From assembly GCA_964464245.1 (NCBI GenBank), contig CAYXFH010000012.1:1-14689 (forward strand): DNA of 14,689 bases. The letters run 5' to 3'. The position numbers were made by a program, and so were the translations under genes. The notes under the pieces are model-generated. The model searched no databases. It had not been told where the DNA came from and was given only the letters and a program-made list of their open reading frames with translations. The DNA comes from an uncultured bacterium (GTDB lineage: Bacteria; Caldisericota; JANLFM01). Positions 1,086 to 14,630 of this stretch are shown piece after piece (within the stretch, counting starts at the first letter, position 1; each line of letters begins with the position of its first letter).

Positions 1086-2219
1086 ATGAGCCCGCAGAAG
1101 GACTTCTACCAGGTGCTCGGCGTGACGCAAAGCGCCAGCGGTGAGGAGATCAAGTACGCTTACCGCCAGTTGGCCCGCCAATTCCACCCCGACTTGAACC
1201 CCGAACCCGACGCGGGCGAGAAGATGCGCGAGATCAACGAAGCCTACGAGGTCCTCTCCGACAGCGAAAAGCGCGCCCGGTATGACCAGTTCGGGACTGC
1301 CGACCAACCGCAGGGAAGCCCCTTTGGAGGCAGTTACGGCGGCGGCTTTGGCGACTTGGGGGAGATCTTCAGCGCTTTCTTCGGAGGAGGAACGCGCGCC
1401 GGGCCAGAAGTGGAGCGCGGCCCGCGCCGCGGTTCCGACCTGCGAGCCAACGCGCGCGTGACGCTGGAGGAAGTAGCCACCGGCGCCGACCGGGAGGTCT
1501 CCGTCAATCGTCTGGAACGCTGCGCCACCTGCAACGGGACCGGCGCGGAAGCGGGCAGTTTCCCAGTGACGTGCGCGCGCTGCAATGGCCGGGGGGTCAT
1601 GCGCCAAGTCAACCAGTCGCTCTTTGGCCAGTTCATCCAGGAAGTGGCCTGCCCGGACTGCCATGGCGAAGGGCAGATCATCCGCAACCCCTGCCCTGCC
1701 TGTCGGGGAAACGGGGTCAGCCGCGCCTCCCGCAAGCTGAACATCCGCATCCCGGCCGGGGCGGACGACGGCACCAAGCTCCGTCTCAACAACGAGGGGG
1801 AAGCAGGCTTTCGCGGCGGGCCGGCGGGCGACCTCTTCATCAGCCTCTCAGTGACCAAGGATCCGCGCTTCGAACGCGATGAAGCCAACCTCTTCACAAC
1901 CCTTTTTGTCCCCTACCCCACGCTCGTCTTGGGCAGCACGGTAGCGGTGCAATCGGTGTTGGAAATGCACAACCTGACCATTCCCCCTGGCACTGAGGCG
2001 GACAAGCAGTTCAACCTGCGCGGGGCCGGCCTCCCCTACTTGGGCCGGCGCGATAAGGGCGATCTCTACGTGACCGTCAAGGTGCAGGTGCCCAAGAAGC
2101 TCAGCCCGCAAGAACGCCAATTGCTGGAGCAATTAGCTGTTATCCAAAACAATGGCAATCTCTCCGCCGCAGCGAGCAAGAAAACCAGCGGTAAGAAGAA
2201 AAAGGGTCTCTTCGGCTAA
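1086..2219 (+). CDS. dnaJ: Molecular chaperone DnaJ (type I Hsp40), ~377 aa
   Basis: J-domain with HPD motif (YRQLARQFHPDLNP). Gly/Phe-rich linker (GSPFGGSYGGGFGDLGEIFSAFFGGG). Four CxxCxGxG zinc-finger repeats (CATCNGTG, CARCNGRG, CPDCHGEG, CPACRGNG). C-terminal client-binding domain. Start is taken at ATG 1086 (MSPQKDFYQVLGV) rather than the upstream in-frame codon at 1047, because a GGAGG/AGAGAGG Shine-Dalgarno (SD) sequence precedes 1086. Confidence 0.93.
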   Translation: MSPQKDFYQVLGVTQSASGEEIKYAYRQLARQFHPDLNPEPDAGEKMREINEAYEVLSDSEKRARYDQFGTADQPQGSPFGGSYGGGFGDLGEIFSAFFGGGTRAGPEVERGPRRGSDLRANARVTLEEVATGADREVSVNRLERCATCNGTGAEAGSFPVTCARCNGRGVMRQVNQSLFGQFIQEVACPDCHGEGQIIRNPCPACRGNGVSRASRKLNIRIPAGADDGTKLRLNNEGEAGFRGGPAGDLFISLSVTKDPRFERDEANLFTTLFVPYPTLVLGSTVAVQSVLEMHNLTIPPGTEADKQFNLRGAGLPYLGRRDKGDLYVTVKVQVPKKLSPQERQLLEQLAVIQNNGNLSAAASKKTSGKKKKGLFG

Positions 2220-2256
2220 TGGGGACAGCCAAAACCAATGGGGACAGAATTGAGCT

Positions 2257-2297
2257 AAACCAATGGGGACAGATTTGAAATCTGTCCCCATTGGTTT
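2257..2297. repeat. Perfect 20-bp-arm inverted repeat AACCAATGGGGACAGATTT-g-AAATCTGTCCCCATTGGTT, preceded by two extra direct half-sites ATGGGGACAG at 2219-2230 and 2238-2249; copy 1 of a dispersed palindromic element
   Basis: Read directly: arms 2257-2276 and 2278-2297 are exact reverse complements. It sits between the convergent 3' ends of dnaJ (stop 2219) and the yeaQ-like gene (stop 2308). The same core recurs at 5369-5438, 11131-11175 and 11990-12026. Confidence 0.8.
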
Positions 2298-2307
2298 CCA
2301 TTAGCGA

Positions 2308-2565
2308 TTAGAGCAAGCGGCGATAGCTGAAGAGACGCACCATCCAGAAGAAAAGGAAAGCGCCCCCTCCAGCGGCGAGAAGGACGGCCCAATGCGTGGC
2401 TCTCCAGTGGCCCAGGGTGGTTGCCAGGTAGGCGGCGATCAGCGCTCCGGTGACGCTGAGGATCAGCGTCTCCATGAACTGCAAGCCGCGGCGGATGGGA
2501 AAGAGGAAATGACAGAAGACCGTCACCCCAAACCCGACCAGCGCCCACCAGAGCCAGTTGCTCAT
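2308..2565 (-). CDS. GlsB/YeaQ/YmgE-family (transglycosylase-associated) small stress membrane protein, 85 aa
   Basis: Hydrophobic helices with a Gly-rich pattern (LILSVTGALIAAYLATTLG, VLLAAGGGAFLFFWMV) typical of PF04226. The start lies 7 nt downstream of the pmbA stop, suggesting an operon. Confidence 0.65.
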   Translation of the reverse strand: MSNWLWWALVGFGVTVFCHFLFPIRRGLQFMETLILSVTGALIAAYLATTLGHWRATHWAVLLAAGGGAFLFFWMVRLFSYRRLL

Positions 2566-2572
2566 CCCGGCC

Positions 2573-3913
2573 TCAGTAGGTCGTCTGTCCGTTGAAGGTG
2601 AAAGCCCTCACCTTGAGGGCAGGGACCAGGTTCCCGCCGAAGAAACCGGCCTGCAGCTTCCGCTCGAAGCCGATCAGTTGGGCTTCCTTCAGGGCGCCTA
2701 GGATGGATGAGGTGAAGCGCAAGTTGCAGAGGGGCGCGGTGATCCGGCCGTGATCGATCTTGAAGGTGCCGTCGCGGGTCATCCCGGTGATCAGGGTCAG
2801 TTTTGGGTGAACCGGCCGGACGTACCAGAGGCGAGTTACCAGTACGCCGTCCTCGGTGTCGGCGATCATCTCCTCGATCGTAGCGTTCCCAGGGGCCATC
2901 ACCATGTTCAAGGGCAAGGGTCCAAATCCGTTCGGCTGGGGCAAGGCATGCCCGGTGGAACGCTTCCCCTCCAGATTGGCGGTGAAGGAATCATAGACGA
3001 CGCCCATAGCCACGCCGTTCTCGATGAGGGCGACTTTTTCCTTGGGCTGCCCCTCGAAGTCAAAAGGAACGATCCAGCCTTCCGGGTGCAACCCGTCATC
3101 CCAAATGGAGATGTTCTCCGCCGCCACCGGTTGACCCATGGAGTCGCTCATGAAGGAGCGCTTCTCCTGATAGGACAAGGCGCCCAGCCCCATGTAGCCG
3201 AGGTAATCCAGCATCTCAGCCACAGCGTAGGGCAAGAAGACCGCTTCCATCTCCTTCACTTCGGTAAGCTGGGGATCCTGGGCGCTGAGGGCGCGCTCCA
3301 GCGCTTCCTCGGCCACTGCCTCCACGTCGATCGCAGCAACTGATGTGCCGTGGCGGTCGGCGTACCCGGCCGAGGTCGGGGAGAGAAGGACGGTAGAGAG
3401 GGAGGCGCGGGTGGCTTCGGTGTAGGCTTCCACCCCCAGGGAGTTAACCACGCCCAGTTTGTAGACGCTGGTGGAGAAAGCGCCCGAGGCTTTCACCGGA
3501 TGACCCTTCAGCTTGGCCACCAGCTTGGCCACTCCCTCGGCTCGCTCCTCCGGGGAATAGCGGGCGGTGCGCCCTACGAAAGCGCCGGCCGGGGCGGGAA
3601 GGATCGCTTGCGGGCCGGGCAAGCTCTTGAACTCGCTGTTCTTCGGGGAAAGGCGAGCGATTTCGGCAGCCAACCGCACTGTCTTGACTACCTCTTCCGG
3701 GTCCAAGCGGTTGGTGGAGGCGATGCCGATGCGTTGATCTACTACCAGGCGAACGGTCAGGGTGGCATCCTCCTGGCTGGTGTTCTGGTGGATGATGGAG
3801 TTGGCGAAACGCGTTAGTTGTTCGTCCTGAACAGTCAGCACGGCTTCCGCCTGGTCGGCCTGGCTGGCGGCCAGGGCTTGCTTAAGGATAGAGAGGATCT
3901 CGTCGCGCTTCAT
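2573..3913 (-). CDS. pmbA: PmbA/TldE-family metalloprotease partner subunit, 446 aa
   Basis: Length and sequence are typical of the TldE/PmbA family, which lacks HExxxH. It is paired with tldD directly upstream, and its ATG (3913-3911) overlaps the tldD TGA (3912-3910) as ATGA. Confidence 0.82.
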   Translation of the reverse strand: MKRDEILSILKQALAASQADQAEAVLTVQDEQLTRFANSIIHQNTSQEDATLTVRLVVDQRIGIASTNRLDPEEVVKTVRLAAEIARLSPKNSEFKSLPGPQAILPAPAGAFVGRTARYSPEERAEGVAKLVAKLKGHPVKASGAFSTSVYKLGVVNSLGVEAYTEATRASLSTVLLSPTSAGYADRHGTSVAAIDVEAVAEEALERALSAQDPQLTEVKEMEAVFLPYAVAEMLDYLGYMGLGALSYQEKRSFMSDSMGQPVAAENISIWDDGLHPEGWIVPFDFEGQPKEKVALIENGVAMGVVYDSFTANLEGKRSTGHALPQPNGFGPLPLNMVMAPGNATIEEMIADTEDGVLVTRLWYVRPVHPKLTLITGMTRDGTFKIDHGRITAPLCNLRFTSSILGALKEAQLIGFERKLQAGFFGGNLVPALKVRAFTFNGQTTY

Positions 3914-5370
3914 TTCTTCACTCCTACCTGCACATTGCGGAAACGGGCCGGGGACGCCCCGTGCCCCACGTGCATGCTCTGGGGTGGCTGTCCTTTGCCG
4001 CAGTTGGTAAGACCCCAGAGGAACCAGGAATTCTCGTCGGCGACGGCATCGCAGGAGTTCCAGAACTGAGGCGTCATCCCGGTGTAGGTGGCGTTCTTAA
4101 CAGGCGCTCCCAGCTTGCCTCCCTCGATCTCGTAGGCGATCTCTGTGCCGAACTGGAAGTTCAGGCGTTTGTCGTCGATCGACCAGCTCTTGTTGGTGAT
4201 CAGGTAGAGGCCGTGCTCGGTGTCGGCGATCAGTTCCTCGAAGGGTATCGTCCCAGGCCGGATGCTGATGTTGGTCATGCGGATGATCGGCATCCGCCCC
4301 CAGCCGTCGGCTCGCATCGCCGCCGAGTTCTTCAGCCCCAGCGCAGCGGCTGTCTCGCGGCTGGTCAGGTAACCAATGAAGAGCCCTTCTTTGACCAAAT
4401 CCACCGACTGGGCGGGAAATCCCTCATCATCATAGGCGAAGGTCCCCAGGCCGCCGGGGATGGTGGCGTCGGCATAGATGGTGACATGCTTGGAGCCGTA
4501 CTGCAGCTTGCCTAGAAGGTCCGGCATCATGAAGCTTGTGCCGGCGAAGGAGGCCTCGGTTCCCAAGACCCGATCCAGCTCGGTTGGGTGTCCGCAGGAT
4601 TCATGGATCTGCAAGCCTAACTGACTGGAATCGAGGATGATATCGATCTCGCCGGAGGGACAAGGCTTGGCGGTCAAGAGCGAGACGGCTTCCTGCCCGA
4701 TGCGCTCGGCATTCTCCAGCAAGCCCAAAGTGGCGATGAACTCGTATCCCAAGGCCCGCACGTTCCCCCCCATCGAGTTGGGGAAAGAGCGGATCTGCAT
4801 GTCGTTCTCGCCCACAGCGTAGGCTTCCAGGCCGCCGCCGGACTCCACCTTGTGCTGTTCGATGAACGACCCTTCCGAGGAGGCGAAGATCTTCCGCTCC
4901 TTCCAGAAGTCCAGGCTGGCGCGGGAGATGGTCACCCCCGGCACAGCCCGCACCTTGTCGTCGACTTGGGTCAGGAACTGGATCTTCTCCTCCAGTGGAA
5001 CATGGAAGGGGTCGATCCGGCAGTCAGCGGGGAGATAGGCCTCCACTGCCAGTAGAGGTTCCAGGACCACGTCGCGCTCTTTGACGCGGGCTGATGCTTC
5101 GGCGATGCGCACAGCCAAAGCGGTGATCTCTTCCACCTTCCGGCCGGTGAGCGTGCGGGAGCTAGCGAAACCCCAGGCGCCGTTCTTCAGGACGCGCACC
5201 CCAAAACCTGCATCCAAGCCGTTGGCGATCGACTCCACATTCCCCAACTTCAAGGCCAGACTCTGCTGTTCGCGTCGGATGATGCGGATGTCGGCATAGG
5301 CACAGCTTAACTTCTTGGCTGTGCTCAGGCACAATTCAGTGAACTCGCGCAAATGATACTCCTTTCGCAT
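3910..5370 (-). CDS. tldD: TldD-family zinc metalloprotease, 486 aa
   Basis: Contains the IHESCGHPTELD (HExxxH-like) metal site. The C-terminal segment ...TNCGKGQPPQSMHVGHGASPARFRNVQVG resembles the E. coli TldD C-terminus. It has a 4-nt overlap with pmbA. Confidence 0.86.
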   Translation of the reverse strand: MRKEYHLREFTELCLSTAKKLSCAYADIRIIRREQQSLALKLGNVESIANGLDAGFGVRVLKNGAWGFASSRTLTGRKVEEITALAVRIAEASARVKERDVVLEPLLAVEAYLPADCRIDPFHVPLEEKIQFLTQVDDKVRAVPGVTISRASLDFWKERKIFASSEGSFIEQHKVESGGGLEAYAVGENDMQIRSFPNSMGGNVRALGYEFIATLGLLENAERIGQEAVSLLTAKPCPSGEIDIILDSSQLGLQIHESCGHPTELDRVLGTEASFAGTSFMMPDLLGKLQYGSKHVTIYADATIPGGLGTFAYDDEGFPAQSVDLVKEGLFIGYLTSRETAAALGLKNSAAMRADGWGRMPIIRMTNISIRPGTIPFEELIADTEHGLYLITNKSWSIDDKRLNFQFGTEIAYEIEGGKLGAPVKNATYTGMTPQFWNSCDAVADENSWFLWGLTNCGKGQPPQSMHVGHGASPARFRNVQVGVKK

Positions 5371-5438
5371 GGGGGGAACAGATTTGACCTCCGGTCTATC
5401 CGGAAATCTGTCCCCATACTATTAAAATCTGTCCCGAT
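5369..5438. repeat. Degenerate copy 2 of the palindromic element: ATGGGG(gga)ACAGATTTGA - 18-nt GC-rich loop (CCTCCGGTCTATCCGG) - GAAATCTGTCCCCAT, plus an extra half-site AAATCTGTCCCGAT at 5425-5438
   Basis: Read directly. It overlaps and abuts the tldD start codon (5370-5368) and lies downstream of the small-TM/DUF2207 genes. Confidence 0.7.
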
Positions 5439-5451
5439 ACTGTCTGTTGGC

Positions 5452-5718
5452 TTAGGGCTTCGTCTCGGGGTCTCCTCCCCTCTTTCCCTCCGCGCGTGCG
5501 GGGGCAAAATCGGCATCAAGCTGCGCCGCTTGGCGCAGTTCCTCCTCCTCACGGCGCGCCTCGCGTCGAAGAAGAAGGCCGGCTATAAGCAGCGCGACAG
5601 CCGGGATAGCCAGCGGCCACCAGGCGCCCGGCCAGGCGAGGAGATAGCCGAGGGCTATCAATAGGAACAACAGGGCGGAGAGAAGAACAGTTAGGGAAGC
5701 CCAGCGGCTAACCCGCAC
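5452..5718 (-). CDS. Hypothetical small membrane protein (~88 aa): two predicted TM helices followed by a charged Arg/Glu-rich tail; possible GTG start overlapping the DUF2207 stop
   Basis: Supported portion of ORF 5452..5991: VRVSRWASLTVLLSALLFLLIALGYLLAWPGAWWPLAIPAVALLIAGLLLRREARREEEELRQAAQLDADFAPARAEGKRGGDPETKP. The upstream part of that ORF is an alternate frame of the DUF2207 C-terminus and is not counted. GTG at 5718-5716 is preceded by GGAGGAGGGGG, which comes from the poly-Gly codons of the upstream gene. Confidence 0.35.
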   Translation of the reverse strand: MRVSRWASLTVLLSALLFLLIALGYLLAWPGAWWPLAIPAVALLIAGLLLRREARREEEELRQAAQLDADFAPARAEGKRGGDPETKP

Positions 5719-7516
5719 CGCTGCCCCCTCCTCCTCCCCCGCCGCCGCCTCCTCCGGAGAAACCGCCCCCTCCTCCGCCCGAGGAGCTGGATCTTTCCGC
5801 TGTGAATGCCGTGCTGACGCGGGCGCCGAAATCGTTGAAGGAGTTCTGCAGCGCTTGTCCGAATTGGCTGCTTCCGCCCATCGCGGAGCTGCCGTAGGCG
5901 CCGGCGTAAGCCCACACCCACCAGGAGGGTGCGTAGAAGTCTGGCCGCGCGGCGAAGGAGGCCACCCAGCCCTTCTCGATGCCGAAGACAATGGCGTAGG
6001 GCAAGTATTCCGAGAAGATCGTGCTGGAATCGCGCAAGGCCGGCCGCTTTTCCAGCTCCAGCATGTACTGCATGAAGGCCTTCCAGGCGGACAGCTCGCG
6101 CGCGCCGGTATAGCTGCGACGCGGCATCGCTGAGCCGAAACCTAGGACAAAGAAGGAAGCGAAGATCAACCCGATGCCCAGGATAAAGACCTGGAAGAAG
6201 AAGAGAGCGATCCCGCCAAAAAGCATCAGCGTGCCGATCCCGCTATAGGTGGCTCGGACTCTGCCGGGATCGGCATCGAAGAAGCGGTAGGGAGCCAGGT
6301 AGGCCCAGATCTCCTTCTGGAAACTGCTCACGTAGGCGGAGAGGGCATGCGCCATGGCGGAGAGAGTGGTGGTCTGCACGTGGGCGCCGAAGAGCAGGTT
6401 GAAGAGGAAACTCTCGTAGGGCTGTAGATCCTGGTCCTCTTTCAGCTTGGTCAGGCGAAAGTCCGCTCCCTCTTGCTCCATCTTCAGGTACCCCTTATGA
6501 GCCAAGTCGAAGATCGTCGCCTGGATCCCTTTCTGGGTGGAAGCTTGGCGCCAGAGCGCATCCACCCCGGCCGGGCGTAATGCGGTGGGGGGGCCGGAGA
6601 TCATCGCCGTGGAGGGCGGCATGCGCAGCTCGCGCCCCTTGGTCCACCACTGATAGATCATCCAGATGGGAACCAGCGAGGCAATGGCGATCGCTAAAAT
6701 GTACTGCGCATCCAACCAGAAGCGGCGCCACCATGCGGCGTTGTCCTGGGCCTTCTGTTCTTGCTGCACTTGGGGGAGAATGGATTGGCTGGAGCGGCTC
6801 ATGCCGGAGGGAAGGGAGACCAACCCTTGCGGGAAGAGCAGGCGCGCCTCCAGCCCCACCCCCTCGTCGAGGGTGGATTCCAGTTGGATGGTCGCGCCGT
6901 CAACGATGGTCACCTTACCGCTTCCCGGGGCCGGACCGTACGCCCAAACCAGCAATTGCTCCTTCGTAGCGCCGGCGGGCAAATGGATGGCGACCCGCGC
7001 CTGCTCCATGGGTTTCTCGTGGTCGGCCCCGATGAACTTGAAATAGAGCTGGTCGTAGTCCTGCCAGAAGCTGATCGCGCCGCGCCGCGCGGCGCCCACC
7101 AAGCGGTAGCCGATCACCCAACTGTGGGTGGAGTTGGTGTAATCGAAATTCCAGCGGATGGTCACGCGGGAACCCTCGTCGGTGACGCTGTAAACGCCTG
7201 GAGCAGTGCCGGCGTCACGACGGTAGACAGTCCCGCTCGGCTCGCGCACGCTGACCTGGTCCACACCTTCGATCTGGTCCTTGACGATGTAGAGGTAGGC
7301 GAAATGGTAATTCCCCTCGAAGCGCAGGCTCCGCGTCTCTTCTACCAAGAGGTTCCCGTCCGCTTGCACTTGAACCTGGAGGGAAACATCAGTCCAGATG
7401 TAGTCCTTGGCTTGGACGCCAGTGGGCAGGATGAACAGGAGGCACGACGACATCACTGCAAGGAGGAGCGATAGCAAAGCCAGGCGCCTCAAGCGACCGC
7501 GGGTTATTCTTCTCAT
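5708..7516 (-). CDS. DUF2207-family predicted membrane protein (signal peptide, extracytoplasmic N-domain, central TM helices, Gly-rich C-terminal tail), 602 aa
   Basis: N-terminal signal peptide (MRRITRGRLRRLALLSLLLAVMSSCLLF). TM segments lie around residues 270-290 and 420-470. The C-terminal SSSSGGGGGGFSGGGGGGGGGGGSGAG tail is characteristic of DUF2207 proteins. Start ATG 7516-7514 is preceded by AAGGAG. Confidence 0.75.
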   Translation of the reverse strand: MRRITRGRLRRLALLSLLLAVMSSCLLFILPTGVQAKDYIWTDVSLQVQVQADGNLLVEETRSLRFEGNYHFAYLYIVKDQIEGVDQVSVREPSGTVYRRDAGTAPGVYSVTDEGSRVTIRWNFDYTNSTHSWVIGYRLVGAARRGAISFWQDYDQLYFKFIGADHEKPMEQARVAIHLPAGATKEQLLVWAYGPAPGSGKVTIVDGATIQLESTLDEGVGLEARLLFPQGLVSLPSGMSRSSQSILPQVQQEQKAQDNAAWWRRFWLDAQYILAIAIASLVPIWMIYQWWTKGRELRMPPSTAMISGPPTALRPAGVDALWRQASTQKGIQATIFDLAHKGYLKMEQEGADFRLTKLKEDQDLQPYESFLFNLLFGAHVQTTTLSAMAHALSAYVSSFQKEIWAYLAPYRFFDADPGRVRATYSGIGTLMLFGGIALFFFQVFILGIGLIFASFFVLGFGSAMPRRSYTGARELSAWKAFMQYMLELEKRPALRDSSTIFSEYLPYAIVFGIEKGWVASFAARPDFYAPSWWVWAYAGAYGSSAMGGSSQFGQALQNSFNDFGARVSTAFTAERSSSSGGGGGGFSGGGGGGGGGGGSGAG

Positions 7517-7576
7517 CTTCGCTCCTTTCCCAGCGGGATCTCTCCCATTATACTCAGAACGCCCTGCCGGGGGCTA
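7517..7576 (-). promoter_or_regulatory. Candidate promoter/operator of the DUF2207 gene: SD AAGGAG, -10 TATAAT, and the 19-mer TAGCCCCCGGCAGGGCGTT over the -35 position
   Basis: Minus strand reads ...TAGCCCCCGGCAGGGCGTTCTGAGTATAATGGGAGAGATCCCGCTGGGAAAGGAGCGAAGATG. TATAAT is the reverse complement of 7547-7552 and AAGGAG the reverse complement of 7522-7527. The 19-mer (7558-7576) recurs exactly at 11663-11681. Confidence 0.4.
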
Positions 7577-7600
7577 TTATGTTGCCGGGGGCTATCATTG

Positions 7601-7660
7601 TTTAGTGGTTTAGTAGCCAAGTGGTCAAGTGGTCAAGTGGTCAAGTGGTCAAGTAAAAAA
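7601..7660. repeat. Tandem 8-mer repeat (GTGGTCAA x4 perfect at 7621-7652, with degenerate units either side: tttagtgg/tttagtag/ccaagtgg/.../tcaagtaa)
   Basis: Read directly. The 8-bp periodicity suggests a slippage-prone microsatellite. The reverse complement gives four overlapping TTGACC motifs. Confidence 0.85.
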
Positions 7661-7771
7661 ACAAATCTTGATCTTACTCATACTCAACTGCTTTATTACT
7701 CACTTTGAATCACCTATTTACTCAGTTGCTTAACTACTTAATTACTTGATTACTTGATTACTTAACTGCTC
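7661..7771. other. AT-rich island (~30% GC in a ~63% GC context) with AGTAA/TACTCA and GATTACTT x3 short repeats; non-coding
   Basis: Stop codons occur in all frames. It is flanked by 20-nt direct repeats ATGTTGCCGGGGGCTATCAT at 7579-7598 and 7772-7791. Confidence 0.8.
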
Positions 7772-7777
7772 ATGTTG

Positions 7778-7855
7778 CCGGGGGCTATCATGGCGCCGCG
7801 GGGTATGATGCTACCGGGGGCTATCATGGCGCCGCGGGTTATCATGGCGCCGCGC
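7778..7855. repeat. GC-rich direct repeats CCGGGGGCTATCATGGCGCCGCGGG (x2, 7778-7802 and 7814-7838) plus a partial third copy TATCATGGCGCCGCG; they encode the last ~14 aa of the upstream ORF
   Basis: Read directly. CCGGGGGCTAT occurs 4 times between 7567 and 7824 and once more at 11672. Confidence 0.8.
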
Positions 7856-8842
7856 CAGCGCTCGCCACAATTCCTCCCGGCCATCGAAGACCTGCTTCTG
7901 CTCCACGCCGCCTTTGACAAAGATCAGAGTGCGCTCGGGGTGGAAAGAACCGATCCGGGTGAGGGGCAGGCCGCGTTGAGCGAAGGGCTCTTCCAACAGT
8001 CCAAGCGGCGCAGCGATCAGCATCGCTCCGGAGGAGATCAAAGCCAGCGGGTCCAACTCCAAAGCGCGACAGAGAAGGGCGGTCTCCAGGCGAATGGGAA
8101 GCGATTCTTCTTCCACACGCAGCCCGCAGGCGGAGGCCTCCATCATCTCCCAGGCTCCGCCCAGCAGCCCCCCCTCAGTCGCGTCGTGCATGGCATGAGC
8201 GCCCAGGGAAGCGGCCAGCAACCCCTCGGGGACCACCGAGATCTCCTCCAGGAAAGTCGCGGCATGAGCCAAGAGCTCCTCGCCCAGGACGGGGCGCAGC
8301 TCTTCCGCCAGCTCGCGGGCGAGGATCGCCGTCCCCTCCAAAGCAAGCGCTTTGCTGAGGTAGAGGGAGTCCCCCAACTGGGCGCCGCCGGTTCGGATCA
8401 GGCGACCGCGAGGTGTTTTGCCCACCGCCGTCGCCACCACCACCAGTTGCGGCAAATATGGCGTGACTTCGCTGTGACCGCCGAGGATGGCCACTCCCAA
8501 AGAACGAGCGGCGCGATCGGCATCGGACATCATCATCGCCAGCTCTTCGGCAGCCACGTGGGGAGGAATCAGCCAGGTCAAGAGCAGGCCGACCGGCTCG
8601 GCGCCTGCGGCGGCCAGGTCATTGCAGGCGATGTGGACGGCCAACCAGCCAATCTCCTGGCCGGCGCCGGTAATGGGATCGGTGGAGAGAACCAACAAGG
8701 AGTCGCCCCCCAGGTCGAGGACGGCAGCGTCCTCCCCCAGCGCTGCGCCAACCAGCGCCTCCGGCCGTGGCGATCCCAAGTAGGGGAAGACCAAGCGGGT
8801 CAATTCCTGGGAGGAGAGCTTGCCGGGGGAGAGCTTAGGCAT
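7811..8842 (-). CDS. AIR-synthase-related protein (PurM superfamily; HypE/ThiL-like), ~343 aa
   Basis: The N-domain motif ...GEDAAVLDLGGDSLLVLSTDPITGAGQEIGWLAVHIACNDLAAAGAEP... matches the PurM-like N-domain. The C-domain ...GGHSEVTP...ALISSGAMLIAAP... matches the PurM-like C-domain. It lacks the HypE N-terminal HGSGG motif and the C-terminal Cys, and lacks the SelD CxC/U motif. The ATG at 8842-8840 (MPKLSPGK...) is preferred over the TTG at 8869. Confidence 0.55.
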   Translation of the reverse strand: MPKLSPGKLSSQELTRLVFPYLGSPRPEALVGAALGEDAAVLDLGGDSLLVLSTDPITGAGQEIGWLAVHIACNDLAAAGAEPVGLLLTWLIPPHVAAEELAMMMSDADRAARSLGVAILGGHSEVTPYLPQLVVVATAVGKTPRGRLIRTGGAQLGDSLYLSKALALEGTAILARELAEELRPVLGEELLAHAATFLEEISVVPEGLLAASLGAHAMHDATEGGLLGGAWEMMEASACGLRVEEESLPIRLETALLCRALELDPLALISSGAMLIAAPLGLLEEPFAQRGLPLTRIGSFHPERTLIFVKGGVEQKQVFDGREELWRALARRHDNPRRHDSPR

Positions 8843-8865
8843 ACCCGTCTCTTCCCCGCAAGTCA

Positions 8866-8901
8866 GCAACCCTCGACTCTTCGCTTCCGCTCGAGGGTTG
8901 C
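8866..8901 (-). other. Strong hairpin (11-bp stem GCAACCCTCGA/TCGAGGGTTGC, 14-nt loop) in the 119-nt spacer between the flotillin-like gene and the PurM-like gene
   Basis: Read directly. No U-tract follows on the minus-strand RNA, so this is more likely a processing/stability or attenuator structure than an intrinsic terminator. Confidence 0.35.
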
Positions 8902-8961
8902 TGCGGACTTGCTGGGTGACCCGGTCGACCGATGTCGTCTCGGAGGCTGCTCAGGATCGCT

Positions 8962-11028
8962 CTACTTTCCGGAGGGGGGCATCGGGTAGATGGTTGCCTC
9001 AGCCACGGGTGAGGAATTGGCGGGTGAGGAGCCAACGGGCAGCGACTCCAAAACGGGAGTGTTCGACCCACGCTGGGCGCTTCCGGCATTCCCGAGCCAG
9101 CGCATCAGCGTCCCAGCCAAGCCATCCAACGAGCCGGAGCCGTTGCTGCCGGAGACCAGCACTTCGGGTACGAACTTCACCCCGCGGTCGGCCAAAGCCG
9201 TGATGGCGTTTACCATTGCCGTCGGCTCCTGCCCAAGCGCGCGGACCTGGGCCTCGTATGCTTTGGCTCGCGCCATCCCGATCGCCTCTACTTCGGCCCC
9301 CTTGGCGGCGCCGGTCTCCCGGATGTAGGTGGCTTCGCCGTCAGCCTCGGCCTTGCGGGCGGTGGCGTTGTTGCTCTTGATCTCCACGTTAACGCGGGAC
9401 TCGGCCAGCTTGGTCTGCATGTCGGCCGTCCCCCGAGCCTGCTCGGTGGCGATGCGCTGATCCTGAGCCTCTCGCTGCTTCTGGTAGGTCTGAATCTCCT
9501 GGTTGGCGATCTCCCGTTCGGTCAGAACCTTCACCAGGCTCTCCGGCAGGATGACGTCCTGGATGTAGACGCCACGGGTCTCCACCTGGTACTGAGCGAG
9601 ATGGGAGGCGATGTGCATGAAGGCTTCCTCCTGCACCTTCTGCCGCGTCTCGATGAAGCTGATGGCCGGCATGGACTGCAGTTTGTCGCGGAAGTGGTTG
9701 CCTACCGCCGCCTGCAGGACCTCGTTGACCAGGTTGGCCATGGTCCCCACCATCGAGATGACGCGGGGGGCCTTCGTGTCCGGAACGTGGATCTGCACCT
9801 GCAAATCGATGCGGAAGATGAACCCCTCGCGCGACTTGGCCACGATCTGAGAGAGCTGGCGGTCCAGGTTGTGCGCTTGCGAGGTGGCATCGGCCCAGTT
9901 CAGGGTGAGGATCGAGGTGGGCACGACTTCGGCTTGGTAGCAACGCGGGTTGACCGAGTATTTTCCGGTGCGGATCGGCTCCTGCCAAATGCCGCGGTGG
10001 CCGGAGCGCACTAGTGTGCCGAACTTGAACTCCTCGCCGGAGGTGTCCTTGGCGCCCAGCCCGACATAGGCTTTGATCACCGCCACTTGACCCTGCTCCA
10101 CCACCAGCATCGGCACCATTTCCACCGAGACCAGGAAAGGGTTCAACGCGTAGGCGCCGTAAAGCAGGGGGTCATGCTGCAAGCCGATGCGGCCGCCGTT
10201 GTCGAGGAAGGCTTGGAAGTCCTGGTAGTTGTTGTGCAGATCGTTCTTACTCCCCAGGAGATGGTCAATCAGTTCACTATCTGAGGCGCCCTCATGCTCC
10301 AGCTTCTCCAGATCGGTGAATCCACCCAGACGGCTGGCGATGTCGCCGGCGGGAAGCGGATCTCCCTCGTAAACGGTGACAATCCCCACCATATCGTTGA
10401 CCTCTCCCTCGCGGCTGCGCGGGAGGGGCTCGATGCGCACCAGCGAGAGCTGGTCGGGACGAAGGCCGTAGGCCTCCGGCGTCAGCCGGCCGCTTCCGGC
10501 GCTCCCGGACTTGGTCATCCAGGCGCGCAACTCCGAGGCAATCGGCTCGCCGTAGACCTGGCGACGGGTAATCACCATAAAGCCCACCGGGTGGATCGGC
10601 ACCAGCGTGCCGGGGGGAAGGACCGGGCGCTGTACGCCCTTCTGCCCCCCCAGAGCGATGAACTTGCGCAGGTCGGAGAAGTTGGCGAACTCCGGTTTGA
10701 AGACGGCCGACTTGGCGCCGATCGGCAGCGGCGCCCCGACCTGGGCCACTACCACACCGATCTCCCCGGCCGGCACTTGCACCCAGGGGAACTTGTCGAC
10801 GCGGTAAGGCATCCAGAATTTCCAGCGCCAGCCAGGCATCAACAGGTCGGCTTGGTAGCCGGCTTCCCCCTGGAAGGCAATAGGGTTGTCCTGGTGCAGC
10901 TTGCCGAAGGAGAAACGCTTCGTCACCAGACCGACCTGGGTCGGCCCGATGATCCTGATTGAAGGGAGGAAGAGAATCAAGAAGAGCAAGATGCCCCCCA
11001 GTATGTAGATCAGTGTCCACGGAACCAT
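8962..11028 (-). CDS. Flotillin-like SPFH/band-7 protein (YqiK/FloT-like), 688 aa: N-terminal TM anchor, SPFH domain, long Ala/Glu-rich coiled coil, Ser/Gly/Pro-rich tail
   Basis: TM segment WTLIYILGGILLFLILFL is followed by IIGPTQVGLV..., the start of the SPFH domain. The coiled-coil segment QKQREAQDQRIATEQARGTADMQTKLAESRVNVEIK...AKAYEAQVRALG is typical of flotillin EA repeats. The ATG at 11028 has a perfect SD TAAGGAGG 7 nt upstream. Confidence 0.72.
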   Translation of the reverse strand: MVPWTLIYILGGILLFLILFLPSIRIIGPTQVGLVTKRFSFGKLHQDNPIAFQGEAGYQADLLMPGWRWKFWMPYRVDKFPWVQVPAGEIGVVVAQVGAPLPIGAKSAVFKPEFANFSDLRKFIALGGQKGVQRPVLPPGTLVPIHPVGFMVITRRQVYGEPIASELRAWMTKSGSAGSGRLTPEAYGLRPDQLSLVRIEPLPRSREGEVNDMVGIVTVYEGDPLPAGDIASRLGGFTDLEKLEHEGASDSELIDHLLGSKNDLHNNYQDFQAFLDNGGRIGLQHDPLLYGAYALNPFLVSVEMVPMLVVEQGQVAVIKAYVGLGAKDTSGEEFKFGTLVRSGHRGIWQEPIRTGKYSVNPRCYQAEVVPTSILTLNWADATSQAHNLDRQLSQIVAKSREGFIFRIDLQVQIHVPDTKAPRVISMVGTMANLVNEVLQAAVGNHFRDKLQSMPAISFIETRQKVQEEAFMHIASHLAQYQVETRGVYIQDVILPESLVKVLTEREIANQEIQTYQKQREAQDQRIATEQARGTADMQTKLAESRVNVEIKSNNATARKAEADGEATYIRETGAAKGAEVEAIGMARAKAYEAQVRALGQEPTAMVNAITALADRGVKFVPEVLVSGSNGSGSLDGLAGTLMRWLGNAGSAQRGSNTPVLESLPVGSSPANSSPVAEATIYPMPPSGK

Positions 11029-11130
11029 CGCAGTGCCTCCTTACTCGGCGGTGCGAACCCCAGTGGGTTCCCCACCTGTCCTTTGATTATAGGGCCTTTC
11101 CGGCCGAATGGCGCAGTCTCCGAAAAATAG

Positions 11131-11175
11131 ATCAGCTAATGGGGACAGATTTGAATTCTGTCCCCATTAGCTGAT
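11131..11175. repeat. Copy 3 of the palindromic element: 18-bp arms ATCAGCTAATGGGGACAG / CTGTCCCCATTAGCTGAT with a 9-nt loop ATTTGAATT
   Basis: Read directly. The element supplies the last 12 codons (LMGTEFKSVPIS) and the stop of the Nif3-like C-terminal ORF. Confidence 0.8.
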
Positions 11176-11608
11176 TCAAGGCGCTGAGGCTGTCCACCTG
11201 CAGGCCGCGGCGACGCAACTCGTTCAGGTAGGGGTTGATCCCGACCATATCTGAGGCAAGGTGGCCGCTGATCACCAGGTTCTTCCCCGGATGGGCTGCC
11301 GCCAGTTTCTCTGCTTCTCCTCCATCGATGTGAATGTAGATGACGGTCTGATAACCGGCGCGGTAGAGGACATCCGCTGCGCCAAAGCCGCCATTGGTTC
11401 CCGCTCCGTGGAAAACAGCGACGCGCCCGGCCGGAGCGCTCTCCTCTCCCAGGATAGCAACCGGGGGAAGGGGAGCAGCGGCAATCTCCGGGAACTCGCC
11501 CAAGGCCGACAAAACCTCTGCTACTGTCCAACCAGGGTGGGCTCGCTCCTCCAGTTTACCTTGCATCAGGCGCCGGCCCAGCTCGTCGAGTGGGTTGTGT
11601 ACATTCAA
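11132..11608 (-). CDS. Nif3/DUF34-family protein, C-terminal half (frame 2 of a split gene); TTG start in the track, but the frame is open upstream to ~11847
   Basis: RVAVFHGAGTNGGFGAADVLYRAGYQTVIYIHIDGGEAEKLAAAHPGKNLVISGHLASD...LNEL matches the Nif3 C-terminal half (compare E. coli YbgI RVAWCTGGGQSF...AAGHHATERGG...LSEWL). Confidence 0.5.
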   Translation of the reverse strand: MNVHNPLDELGRRLMQGKLEERAHPGWTVAEVLSALGEFPEIAAAPLPPVAILGEESAPAGRVAVFHGAGTNGGFGAADVLYRAGYQTVIYIHIDGGEAEKLAAAHPGKNLVISGHLASDMVGINPYLNELRRRGLQVDSLSALNQLMGTEFKSVPIS

Positions 11609-11982
11609 GAAGGGTTGGCGCAGTCGCTCGGCCAGCCGAAGAGGATCCTCCCAGTTGGCCTTAACGCCCTGCCGGGGGCTAGAGCGTTCAGGAAGGCGCT
11701 TCGCCGCAGACGGGCAGTGGCGCGCTCGGCCTCCTCCTTGGGCGCCCCCAGTTCTTCCAGAAGAGAGCTCTGCCGTTCCAGCACGCGGTAGAAAGTAGCT
11801 ATAGCCAGACCGCGCGGGTGGTGGCCAAGAACGCAGTCATAGGCGTGGTCTTTGGCATAGAGAAGCTCGGCGGCGGAGACATCAAGGGCGAAGAGGATCC
11901 GCTGGAGGCGCCTCCCGGGAACATGGACGGCTGAATCCGAAGGGACCTCCTTCATTCCGGCCATATCGAGGGCGATCTGCAT
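11605..11982 (-). CDS. Nif3/DUF34-family protein, N-terminal half (frame 1 of a split gene); likely disrupted or frameshifted
   Basis: VHVPGRRLQRILFALDVSAAELLYAKDHAYDCVLGHHP matches the Nif3 N-terminal fold and the HHP metal motif. The expected second motif (aaHTNlD) is absent in all three frames. The TGA stop overlaps the TTG of the C-terminal half (TTGA). Confidence 0.45.
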   Translation of the reverse strand: MQIALDMAGMKEVPSDSAVHVPGRRLQRILFALDVSAAELLYAKDHAYDCVLGHHPRGLAIATFYRVLERQSSLLEELGAPKEEAERATARLRRSAFLNALAPGRALRPTGRILFGWPSDCANPS

Positions 11983-11989
11983 CAGTTGA

Positions 11990-12026
11990 GCAAATGGGGA
12001 CAGATTTGAAATCTGTCCCCATTTGC
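11990..12026. repeat. Copy 4 of the palindromic element: perfect 18-bp arms GCAAATGGGGACAGATTT-g-AAATCTGTCCCCATTTGC
   Basis: Read directly. It lies between the nrdJ stop (12037) and the Nif3-like N-terminal ATG (11982), ending 8 nt from that ATG with no SD sequence. Confidence 0.8.
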
Positions 12027-12036
12027 TGCTTGCTGC

Positions 12037-14403: not shown

Positions 14404-14543
14404 TTCGGTCCTCTCTACAATCAATGGTGGATGAGATCAATTATCTATACAACCAATGGTAGCATATCCTCTTATCGCAAGCCACCAGGGTGGACCCTGG
14501 ACCGGCTTTCCAAAGATGGCGGGATCGGTTAAAATGTGCGCGT

Positions 14544-14630
14544 GCCGAAGTGGCGGAATTGGCAGACGCGCTACGTTCAGGGCGTAGTTGGAGAACTCCA
14601 GTGGGGGTTCGACTCCCCCCTTCGGCACCA
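14544..14630 (+). tRNA. tRNA-Leu (anticodon CAG), type II tRNA with long variable arm; CCA encoded
   Basis: Cloverleaf read by hand. Acceptor GCCGAAG/CTTCGGC; D-stem GCG/CGC; anticodon stem CTACG/CGTAG with loop TTCAGGG (anticodon CAG); variable arm TTGGAGAACTCCAGT; T-stem GGGGG/CCCCC with loop TTCGACT; discriminator A then CCA (14628-14630). Confidence 0.85.

What the first reader, a model, noticed from the sequence alone, without database searches (positions are those of the whole stretch)
2219..12026. Dispersed perfect palindromic element (core ATGGGGACAGATTTGAAATCTGTCCCCAT) at four gene boundaries in 15 kb
Four copies: 2257-2297, 5369-5438, 11131-11175 and 11990-12026. Each has an 18-20-bp perfect inverted repeat around a 1-9-nt centre; the 5369 copy is degenerate and has an 18-nt inserted loop. 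Flanking nucleotides vary (CCAATGGGG / GCTAATGGGG / CAAATGGGG), so the arms extend beyond the conserved core in each copy. This is typical of REP/MITE-like elements, not of a single duplicated segment. Two copies carry extra direct half-sites (ATGGGGACAG x2 before copy 1; AAATCTGTCCCGAT after copy 2). All copies sit at boundaries within the long co-directional minus-strand array: nrdJ|nif3, nif3|flotillin, smallTM|tldD, and the convergent dnaJ/yeaQ junction. None is followed by a U-tract. In two copies read-through of the element supplies the final residues and stop of the adjacent ORF (the Nif3-like C-terminal ORF gains LMGTEFKSVPIS), so the element has remodelled gene ends. Possible roles are an RNase III/processing or mRNA-stability hairpin, a factor-dependent terminator, or an operator for a dimeric regulator. 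A density of 4 per 15 kb implies a genome-wide family that is probably unannotated.
Basis: seen in the sequence. Interest (0 to 1): 0.72.

Follow-up and report, generated by a model that had tools for sequence, protein, structure and literature searches.

The report
Miniature palindromes from a tyrosine-transposase element
The four palindromes are real: they are miniature, gene-less copies of the inverted ends of a small mobile element that encodes an IS200-like tyrosine transposase, an element class already described as "TIRtrons", so the finding is sound but a new member of a known kind.

Summary
There are nine half-sites where 0.07 are expected by chance. Three copies are near-perfect 19-22 bp-arm palindromes. 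One copy is interrupted, and there are extra tandem half-sites.

The core GGGGACAGATTT-N-AAATCTGTCCCC is not private to this genome. The exact sequence occurs in more than 116 stretches of GTDB genomes from many phyla.

The same 12-19 nt form the terminal inverted repeats (AAAGGGGACAGATTTATTT) of a roughly 0.8 kb element. That element encodes a 230-aa Y1/HUH tyrosine transposase with NHVH and RY[IV]ELNP motifs. I found it in P. aeruginosa, in Desulfobacteraceae, Chloroflexota and Deltaproteobacteria MAGs, and in a Coprothermobacterota MAG related to the window's organism.

This protein class is published: TIRYT/"TIRtron" with TIR consensus GGGGWSAS (Di Nocera 2013), TnpAY1 subclass 2.1 (Quentin 2018), and RAYT group 1.

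Intermediate 190-300 bp MITEs link the full element to the 25-bp palindromes.

Close relatives carry the copies at two of the four junctions. More distant relatives have empty sites, with ordinary terminators at one of them.

The best reading is non-autonomous TIR dimers, probably moved in trans by a TIRYT; that step is inferred. No TIRYT gene lies in the window. Roles as RNA hairpins or terminators are possible but untested.

The parts
2212..2228 (.). Solo half-site TCGGCTAATGGGGACAG. It overlaps the dnaJ stop codon (TAA at 2217-2219).
   Evidence: (D15).
2232..2253 (.). Second tandem half-site AAACCAATGGGGACAGAATTGA. It is a direct repeat, 25 bp upstream, of the left arm of copy 1.
   Evidence: D5, 95% identity. 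It is absent from the orthologous copy in L117.
2257..2297 (.). Copy 1: a perfect palindrome with 20-nt arms and a 1-nt centre, at the convergent junction between dnaJ and the 85-aa ORF.
   Evidence: I8. RNA hairpin of -33 to -38 kcal/mol, z -5.7 to -6.2. An orthologous copy is present in L117. Ordinary GC terminators occupy this site in L127 and L118.
5368..5417 (.). Copy 2: an interrupted palindrome made of a degenerate arm (5368-5385), an 18-nt insert (5386-5403) and the arm AAATCTGTCCCCAT (5404-5417). It lies directly upstream of the tldD ribosome-binding site.
   Evidence: L117 has a short degenerate orthologue (GGGGGACAAATCTGTCCCCC). L127 and L128 have none.
5425..5438 (.). Extra tandem half-site AAATCTGTCCCGAT, with a 21-bp period.
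   Evidence: D6.
11131..11175 (.). Copy 3: a palindrome with 22-nt arms at 95% complementarity. It supplies the last 12 codons and the stop of the nif3-like ORF, and is followed by CTATTTTT on the transcribed strand.
   Evidence: I6; -34.2 kcal/mol, z -8.0.
11989..12027 (.). Copy 4: a perfect palindrome with 19-nt arms, between the nrdJ stop and nif3. It replaces the first four or so nif3 codons seen in relatives.
   Evidence: I14; -29.9 kcal/mol, z -8.7.
11141..12032 (-). Segment absent from the 94%-identical relative L117. It holds the frameshifted nif3-like gene and is bounded by copies 3 and 4. L117 reads ...CCTGAGCAGAAGT|TAGCTGATCTATTTT...
   Evidence: The outgroups L118, L128 and L129 have nrdJ-nif3-AIRS, so nif3 is ancestral here.

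Best explanation
Each palindrome is a head-to-head pair of the terminal inverted repeat (TIR) of a "TIRtron". A TIRtron is an element of about 0.8 kb consisting only of a Y1/HUH tyrosine-transposase gene (TIRYT; TnpAY1 subclass 2.1; RAYT group 1) bounded by AAAGGGGACAGATTTATTT and its complement. The window copies keep only the first 12-15 nt of each TIR, joined through 0-1 nt, so they are the smallest non-autonomous derivatives of that element.

The likely history runs from TIRtron, by internal deletion, to 190-300 bp MITEs, then to long-loop hairpins, then to 25-bp palindromes.

The likely mode of spread is inferred, not shown. A TIRYT encoded elsewhere in the genome would recognise the TIR sequence when the palindrome extrudes as a single-strand DNA hairpin. 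It would then cut and rejoin the hairpin in the manner of IS200/IS605 TnpA and E. coli TnpA-REP. Tandem half-site duplications would be a by-product.

Once inserted between genes, the 19-22 bp stems are transcribed as very stable RNA hairpins. They may secondarily act as 3'-end or stability elements, and that too is untested.
For: Shown:
1. The exact core occurs in more than 116 genome stretches from many phyla. The same 12-19 nt flank Y1_Tnp genes in inverted orientation in P. aeruginosa (3 copies), in L195, and in MAGs labelled Coprothermobacterota (L250), Desulfobacteraceae (L251), Chloroflexota (L252) and Deltaproteobacteria (L253/L254).
2. Of 120 metagenome stretches picked by the 19-nt TIR, 28 carry a TIRYT homologue. 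Of the 11 full-length genes, 8 have the motif 51-107 nt upstream and 9 have its complement 22-71 nt after the gene.
3. The protein matches Pfam Y1_Tnp at 7.6e-14. It keeps NHVH and RY[IV]ELNP, as in subclass 2.1 of PMC6006769. It is 65% identical to the published TIRYT tkm_1558, and P0241 is 54% identical to it.
4. More distant homologues carry GGGGTCAG-type inverted repeats instead (R. rubrum, Iodobacter, Sporomusa, Pseudoalteromonas, Skermanella). Protein and TIR therefore co-vary within the GGGGWSAS consensus.
5. Gene and palindromes occur in the same genome. The TIRYT P0241 and the palindrome loci L002, L015, L046, L052, L113 and L115 all come from MAG JAPLHV01. P0337 and L019/L082 both come from JAAEMK01. 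L195 is from the same JGI sample as L117, the window's 94% relative.
6. The MITEs in L115 and L149 match the TIRtron at 77-89% identity over about 45-100 nt at one end, plus 18-38 nt at the other.
7. The insertions are polymorphic. L117 shares copies 1 and 2, while L127, L118 and L128 have none.
8. Tandem half-sites like those beside copies 1 and 2 also sit at TIRtron ends (L251, L253, Skermanella, Pseudoalteromonas).
Against: - No TIRYT gene lies in the window or in any of the 116 palindrome-selected loci. Its presence in this particular genome is unproven.
- No experiment shows that a subclass 2.1 TIRYT cuts or moves its TIRs. PMC3733652 itself calls TIRYTs possibly "less productive" than RAYTs.
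- The window-type copies start AAT-GGGG, whereas TIRtron ends start AAA-GGGG. They may therefore be a diverged subfamily.
- The copy-specific complementary outer stems are not explained by simple cut-and-paste: 14% of 131 copies have 4 bp or more, against 0.4% expected.
Confidence: 0.75

Rival explanations
1. The hairpins are mainly host-selected RNA elements, such as bidirectional terminators, mRNA 3'-end protectors or processing sites. They would be kept for that function, and their resemblance to a transposon end would be secondary (exaptation).
For: - The RNA stems are very stable, at -27 to -38 kcal/mol with z down to -8.7.
- At the convergent dnaJ junction, relatives L127 and L118 carry ordinary GC-hairpin terminators exactly where the window and L117 carry the palindrome.
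- Copy 3 has a T-rich tail and is flagged terminator-like.
- In a Desulfobacteraceae MAG, a variant followed by TTTTTTT lies directly after what I read by eye as a 5S rRNA gene; no search was run to confirm that identification (L082).
Against: - Three of the four copies lack a T-tract.
- Copy 2 sits in a 5' leader beside a ribosome-binding site.
- In the wider sample, divergent contexts are as common as convergent ones (15 versus 15, crude ORF call).
- Selection for a hairpin does not explain identity of the stem sequence across phyla, nor its identity to TIRtron ends.
Confidence: 0.15
2. The copies are dead relics. They would have been generated and reshaped by host replication or repair (slippage at palindromes, fold-back synthesis) after an ancient invasion, with no transposase acting on them today.
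For: - Copy 2 and its L117 orthologue are degenerate.
- The tandem half-sites and the perfect but copy-specific outer stems look like slippage or fold-back products.
- No TIRYT gene is present in the window.
Against: - Three copies are perfect or near-perfect.
- The window gained half-sites and outer stem at copy 1 since its split from a 94%-identical relative.
- Intact TIRYT genes exist in the related MAG and in the same sample as L117.
Confidence: 0.1
3. The palindromes are an operator or binding site for a dimeric DNA-binding protein (a regulator or a nucleoid protein).
For: The sequences have perfect dyad symmetry, and the half-site sequence is conserved across phyla. parS offers a precedent for a cross-phylum palindrome (my own knowledge).
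Against: - The half-site spacing varies from 0 to 20 nt.
- Half-sites occur singly and in tandem.
- The copies lie at 3' ends and inside operons.
- The same sequence forms the ends of a transposase gene about 0.8 kb apart.
Confidence: 0.02
4. The elements are canonical GTAG-type REP/REPIN elements of a group 2/3 RAYT, or a MITE of a DDE transposon.
For: They are short intergenic palindromes, sometimes clustered, as REPs and BIMEs are.
Against: - There is no GT[AG]G at the hairpin foot; the foot reads AATGGGG.
- There are no target-site duplications, and the flanks are inverted rather than direct.
- The cognate gene is a subclass 2.1 TIRYT, for which PMC6006769 reports no REP.
Confidence: 0.03

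Closest known systems
TIRtrons and TIRYT-associated TIR repeat families (Di Nocera et al. 2013, PMC3733652); TnpAY1 subclass 2.1 (Quentin et al. 2018, PMC6006769); RAYT group 1 (Bertels et al. 2017, PMC5581495)
   Same: - The GGGGWSAS motif is present (here GGGGACAG).
- Inverted repeats flank a tyrosine-transposase gene of about 230 aa with NHVH and YIELNP motifs.
- The TIRs also occur away from the gene as singles, dimers and clusters.
- The distribution across phyla is wide and patchy.
- The published member tkm_1558 is 65% identical to the P. aeruginosa protein found here.
   Different: - This particular TIR sequence family is not described in the text I could read. That includes its minimal 25-bp head-to-head form, its near-identity over about 19-25 nt from Pseudomonas to Coprothermobacterota, and the series from TIRtron to MITE to palindrome.
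- Quentin et al. found no REP-like structures near subclass 2.1 genes.
REP/REPIN-RAYT systems (Nunvar 2010; Bertels & Rainey 2011; Ton-Hoang 2012)
   Same: - Short intergenic palindromes are dispersed from the flanks of a single-copy Y1 transposase gene.
- Dimers and clusters occur.
- Secondary roles as RNA hairpins are possible.
   Different: - There is no 5' GT[AG]G guide.
- The arms are a perfect inverted copy of a TIR rather than an imperfect REP stem.
- The protein clade is different.
IS200/IS605 and their palindrome-associated derivatives (PATEs)
   Same: - The catalytic core is a Y1 HUH domain.
- The presumed substrates are single-strand hairpins.
- There are no target-site duplications.
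   Different: - IS200/IS605 have different subterminal hairpins at each end and no TIRs.
- They are often linked to tnpB.
- Their Tyr motif is Y---Q, not Y---NP.
Inverted DNA-uptake-sequence pairs that double as terminators in Neisseria (my own knowledge)
   Same: A 10-12 nt genome-wide word is paired in inverted orientation at gene ends, forming hairpins.
   Different: Those words are species-specific uptake signals with no transposase. Here the word is shared across phyla and is a transposon end.

Membership tests
TIRYT/TIRtron TIR repeats | The repeat carries the GGGGWSAS motif. | tested here: met
   The core GGGGACAG (W=A, S=C, A, S=G) is present in all copies. The consensus is quoted from PMC3733652 and PMC6006769.
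TIRYT/TIRtron TIR repeats | The same sequence flanks a TIRYT gene as terminal inverted repeats. | tested here: met
   Six elements are flanked by AAAGGGGACAGATTTATTT ... AAATAAATCTGTCCCCTTT. Among full-length metagenome genes, 8 of 11 have the upstream repeat and 9 of 11 the downstream one.
TIRYT/TIRtron TIR repeats | The cognate protein is a Y1 HUH transposase of the TIRYT type (NHVH, YIELNP, about 230-240 aa). | tested here: met
   Pfam Y1_Tnp at 7.6e-14. The motifs are invariant in the alignment. Identity to the published tkm_1558 is 65% and 54%. NCBIfam REP_Tyr_transpos scores 75.6 bits, just under its 80-bit cutoff.
TIRYT/TIRtron TIR repeats | A TIRYT gene is present in the same genome as the repeats. 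| not testable with these tools
   Only 14.7 kb of the source genome is available, and it holds no TIRYT. The feature is met in the related Coprothermobacterota MAG JAPLHV01 and in Desulfobacteraceae JAAEMK01.
TIRYT/TIRtron TIR repeats | The repeats are mobilised by the TIRYT. | not testable with these tools
   There is only indirect evidence: filled versus empty orthologous sites and recent local remodelling.
Canonical REP/REPIN (GTAG type) | A 5' GT[AG]G tetranucleotide sits at the foot of the hairpin. | tested here: not met
   The feet read CCAATGGGG, GCTAATGGGG and GCAAATGGGG.
MITE of a DDE transposon | Direct target-site duplications flank the TIRs. | tested here: not met
   The flanks are inverted complements or unrelated, and no direct repeats were seen.
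Intrinsic (Rho-independent) terminator | A GC-rich stem is followed directly by a U-tract on the transcribed strand. | tested here: inconclusive
   Only copy 3 is flagged; copies 1, 2 and 4 lack a T-run. Variants elsewhere do carry TTTT tails.
Rfam RNA families | A match to a curated covariance model. | tested here: not met
   There are only chance-level miRNA-like hairpin hits at E about 1 or higher, far below the gathering scores.

The most novel reading that the evidence does not exclude
The TIR palindromes may be more than passive debris. A TIRYT acting on two of them could excise whatever lies between, as ssDNA transposition excises an IS. That would explain why the 94% relative L117 lacks exactly the nif3 pseudogene together with both bounding palindromes, keeping only the right outer stem TAGCTGATC. 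The perfect, copy-specific outer stems and the tandem half-sites could arise by fold-back copying at a TIRYT-cut half-site. Together these would make a transposase-driven way of building portable hairpins, deleting gene cassettes, and replacing ordinary terminators.
Probability: 0.12. Interest if true: 0.6.

Novelty: new member of a known kind. Interest (0 to 1): 0.33.

Why it matters
To my knowledge, subclass 2.1 TIRYTs are one of the largest groups of Y1/HUH proteins (about 15% of strains in PMC6006769) without a demonstrated substrate or activity. This family offers a clean natural series: an intact gene with 19-nt TIRs, then MITEs, then a 25-bp palindrome. The recognition sequence is almost unchanged from Pseudomonas to Coprothermobacterota. 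That hands an experimenter defined oligonucleotide substrates and cultivable hosts (P. aeruginosa, Marinobacter).

For genome annotation, the result explains a recurrent and very stable intergenic hairpin found in many MAGs. That hairpin can extend ORFs, abut ribosome-binding sites and sit where terminators normally are.

It does not reveal a new class of element.

Tried and rejected
- **Rfam** (E-value mode, whole window): only chance hairpin hits.
- **Literature search by sequence words**: no relevant paper.
- **Exact-protein look-up of the window's TldD**: not on record, so the source contig could not be extended.
- **Neighbour-protein enrichment** around 131 palindromes in 116 loci: no shared mobile-element gene. 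tblastn with the TIRYT found none there.
- **31-mer against plasmids**: one true hit, in Marinobacter, inside a liu operon spacer; the rest were 17-nt chance matches.
- **Viral contigs with the 19-nt TIR**: nothing.
- **Gene-context classification**: done with a crude longest-ORF caller. Many "inside ORF" calls are artefacts of ORFs reading through the element, so only the intergenic classes were used.
- **Burkholderia sp. M701 homologue**: no inverted repeat found.
- **Rejected ideas**: LexA, NrdR or CIRCE-type operators (wrong sequence, variable spacing); CRISPR repeats; integron attC; telomere-resolvase sites; sequencing adaptor artefact (the sequence is present in isolate genomes).
- **Insertion into a pre-existing terminator loop** as the source of the outer stems could not be tested. 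The empty-site relatives (84% and 78%) are too diverged in the spacers.


Full report

Yes. The half-site ATGGGGACAGATTT (up to 2 mismatches) occurs nine times in 14.7 kb, against 0.07 expected, and none of 200 shuffles reaches nine. The repeat finder gives three compact palindromes:
- 2257-2297, with 20-nt arms at 100% complementarity;
- 11131-11175, with 22-nt arms at 95%;
- 11989-12027, with 19-nt arms at 100%.

Each has a 1-nt centre. The fourth copy is interrupted. It has a degenerate arm at 5368-5385, an 18-nt insert, and then AAATCTGTCCCCAT at 5404-5417. Extra half-sites in tandem lie at 2212-2228, 2232-2253 and 5425-5438. The outer 4-8 bp of the stems differ between copies but remain complementary.

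Pfam gives this gene map:
- dnaK' and dnaJ on the + strand;
- then on the - strand: an 85-aa ORF, pmbA/tldD, tldD, a small ORF, DUF2207, an AIR-synthase-like gene, a flotillin/SPFH gene, a nif3-like gene and nrdJ.

The copies lie at four junctions: dnaJ|85-aa ORF (convergent), small ORF|tldD, nif3|flotillin and nrdJ|nif3.

**2. The sequence is not private to this genome.**

The records are labelled Gammaproteobacteria (Marinobacter, Thioalkalivibrio, Halorhodospira, Pseudomonas and many MAGs), Syntrophales/Desulfobacterales, Nitrospirota, Coprothermobacterota, Chloroflexota, Thermoanaerobaculia, Actinomycetes, Clostridium, Salibacteraceae, SAR324 and SAR86.

My own estimate of the chance expectation for a 24-nt word over that database is about 0.04; this was not computed with a tool.

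Among the 131 copies:
- the centre is 1 nt in 110 and ranges from 0 to 20 nt;
- 14% have at least 4 bp of extra outer complementarity, against 0.4% expected.

A crude ORF classification gives 36 co-directional, 15 convergent and 15 divergent contexts, so there is no 3'-end bias. No protein family is enriched next to the copies. Rfam has no matching family.

**3. What the sequence is.**

In a Coprothermobacterota MAG (L115) the motif also forms the two ends of 190-240 bp units: AAAAAGGGGACAGATTTATTTT ... AATAAATAAATCTGTCCCCTTTT.

Searching those ends against plasmids led to a P. aeruginosa record. There, three 693-bp "transposase" genes are each bracketed by GGGGACAGATTTATTTTCCCTACTCTAAT and its inverted complement. 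The protein has these properties:
- it matches Pfam Y1_Tnp (IS200-like) at 7.6e-14;
- its best NCBIfam match is REP-associated tyrosine transposase, just under the cutoff;
- it carries NHVH and RYIELNP.

In the classification of Quentin et al. 2018 these motifs, and a length of about 238 aa, define TnpAY1 subclass 2.1, which equals Bertels' RAYT group 1. The authors equate this subclass with the "TIRYT" of Di Nocera et al. 2013. TIRYTs are tyrosine transposases flanked not by REPs but by terminal inverted repeats that share GGGG[AT][CG]A[CG]. Their TIRs form [quoted passage not shown].

GGGGACAG fits that consensus. A published TIRYT (tkm_1558, from supplement 5 of that paper) is 65% identical to the P. 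aeruginosa protein and 54% identical to the Coprothermobacterota one.

**4. Generality and co-variation.**

More distant homologues on plasmids are flanked by inverted repeats built on GGGGTCAG or GGGTCAGAG. These are in R. rubrum, Iodobacter, Sporomusa, Pseudoalteromonas and Skermanella, at 28-45% identity, and several show tandem repeats of the end. The one Burkholderia homologue showed none.

Closer homologues (53-56% identical to the P. aeruginosa protein, 65-88% to each other) come from contigs labelled Coprothermobacterota, Desulfobacteraceae, Chloroflexota and Deltaproteobacteria. All of them are flanked by AAAGGGGACAGATTTATTT about 50-60 nt upstream, and by its complement overlapping the stop codon.

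I also scanned metagenomes for the 19-nt TIR. Of 120 stretches, 28 carry a TIRYT homologue. Of 11 full-length genes, 8 have the exact motif 51-107 nt upstream and 9 have its complement 22-71 nt downstream. The loci were selected on one TIR, so the informative result is the second, inverted TIR on the other side of the gene.

**5. Link to the window's lineage.**

The window's TldD is 94% identical to a JGI metagenome protein and 73-81% identical to proteins that include ones labelled Caldiserica and Coprothermobacterota. Three links follow:
- A complete TIRtron (L195) lies on another contig of the same JGI sample as the 94% relative L117.
- Its protein is 88% identical to a "transposase [Coprothermobacterota bacterium]" on contig JAPLHV010000133. 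That is the same MAG that yielded six palindrome loci.
- Likewise, the Desulfobacteraceae TIRYT and two palindrome loci share one MAG.

The MITEs of L115 and L149 match the TIRtron at 77-89% identity over about 45-100 nt at one end, plus 18-38 nt at the other. By my own translation of that end, it includes remnants of the transposase C-terminus (VDEIEK). They are therefore internal-deletion derivatives.

Long-loop hairpins (GGGGACAGATTTATTTTC-loop-GAAAATAAATCTGTCCCC) and the 25-bp palindromes complete the series.

In this lineage TIRtron and MITE ends are preceded by AAA, whereas compact palindromes are mostly preceded by AAT. The compact form may therefore be a diverged subfamily.

**6. Evidence of movement.**

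Syntenic loci were recovered from relatives.
- L117 (94%) has a copy at the dnaJ junction with a 0-nt centre and only a 3-bp outer stem. It also has a short degenerate copy upstream of tldD.
- L127 (84%), L118 (78%) and L128/L129 (77%) have none at any junction.
- At the convergent dnaJ junction, L127 and L118 carry ordinary GC-hairpin terminators where the window and L117 carry the palindrome.
- Since its split from L117, the window has gained two tandem half-sites and a longer outer stem at copy 1.

The nif3-like gene, ancestral at this position in L118, L128 and L129, is frameshifted in the window. In L117 it is absent together with both bounding palindromes. L117 keeps the sequence TAGCTGATCTATTTT, which in the window is the right outer stem and flank of copy 3. 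This is compatible with an element-bounded deletion. It is also compatible with coincidence, because the nrdJ|nif3 spacer is only about 10 nt in L118, which leaves little room for the left boundary to fall elsewhere.

**7. How it most likely works.**

*Shown:* the palindromes are two abutted copies of the TIRtron end. The family is polymorphic between close relatives. The cognate gene exists in related genomes.

*Inferred:* the first basis is established knowledge of IS200/IS605 TnpA. The second is the in-vitro cleavage and rejoining of REP by E. coli TnpA-REP (PMC3333891, PMC3479197, PMC8266576; I saw only their abstracts). On those bases, a TIRYT acting in trans would recognise the TIR in a single-strand hairpin and cut and rejoin it.

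This is not shown for any subclass 2.1 protein. Simple cut-and-paste also does not explain the complementary, copy-specific outer stems.

*Secondary effects:* the transcribed hairpins are very stable, at -27 to -38 kcal/mol with z from -2.3 to -8.7. Only copy 3 has a T-rich tail. Copy 2 abuts the tldD ribosome-binding site. Copy 3 supplies twelve codons and the stop of the nif3 pseudogene.

**8. Verdict.**

The element belongs to a published class (TIRYT/TIRtron TIR repeats, GGGGWSAS).

I did not find three things described in the text I could read:
- this specific, cross-phylum GGGGACAGATTT family;
- its minimal palindromic form;
- the series from gene to MITE to palindrome.

I rate it a new member of a known kind, of moderate-to-low interest. 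Its main value is as a ready substrate set for testing what subclass 2.1 Y1 transposases do.

Noticed in passing
window 7579-7790: An AT-rich insertion of about 200 bp in the AIRS|DUF2207 spacer, absent from the 94% relative L117. It is built of 8-bp tandem repeats (CAAGTGGT x4.6 at 7618-7654; TTACTTAA x6 at 7718-7765) and bracketed by the direct repeat ATGATAGCCCCCGGCAACAT. Adjacent 18-bp repeats (7777-7854) overlap the C-terminus of the AIRS protein.
   Followed up: partly
window 11132-11982 (- strand): The nif3-like gene is split by a frameshift into ORFs 11605-11982 and 11132-11608. tblastn with the intact 272-aa L118 protein aligns in two frames. It is either a pseudogene or an assembly error. 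The gene is missing altogether in L117.
   Followed up: yes
window 12037-14424 versus L117 1011-4493 and L118 690-4076: NrdJ carries a LAGLIDADG intein in L117 (1160 aa) and L118 (1128 aa). It does not in the window (795 aa) or in L128/L129 (759 aa).
   Followed up: no
window 8962-11028 versus L118, L128 and L129: The flotillin/SPFH gene is present only in the window and L117. The more distant relatives go straight from nif3 to the AIRS gene, so the gene was gained in this subclade.
   Followed up: no
L127 3757-3828 and L118 11179-11257: At the convergent 85-aa ORF|dnaJ junction, these relatives carry classical bidirectional terminators (AAAAAAGGCGCCTGCACTCGCAGGCGCCTTTTTT; GGGGAGAGCGATCCGCTCTCCCC). 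The window and L117 have the TIR palindrome at the same place.
   Followed up: partly
L115 3595-3640 and 4455-4510; L149 1095-1145, 3215-3250 and 5350-5395: Compact palindromes are nested inside the 200-300 bp MITEs, close to the point where homology to the TIRtron stops. One shows a tandem half-site (GCGGCTAATGGGGACAATGCGGCTGATGGGGACAG).
   Followed up: partly
L120 (P. aeruginosa NZ_CP116719.1) 3100-23000: The TIRtrons and many solo TIRs are interspersed among orphan toxin/immunity cassettes of a CdiA-type array (DUF637, EndoU, deaminase, glutamine deamidase). This suggests the element populates, or helps shuffle, that array.
   Followed up: no
L082 35-312: In a Desulfobacteraceae MAG, palindromes flank what I read by eye as a 5S rRNA gene; no search was run to confirm that. 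The downstream palindrome (GGGGACAGATTTAATAAATCTGTCCCC followed by TTTTTTT) has the form of an rRNA-operon terminator.
   Followed up: no
window 14544-14630 and 1008-1038: A tRNA-Leu(CAG) lies at the right edge of the window. A GC hairpin with a T-tract lies between dnaK and dnaJ.
   Followed up: no
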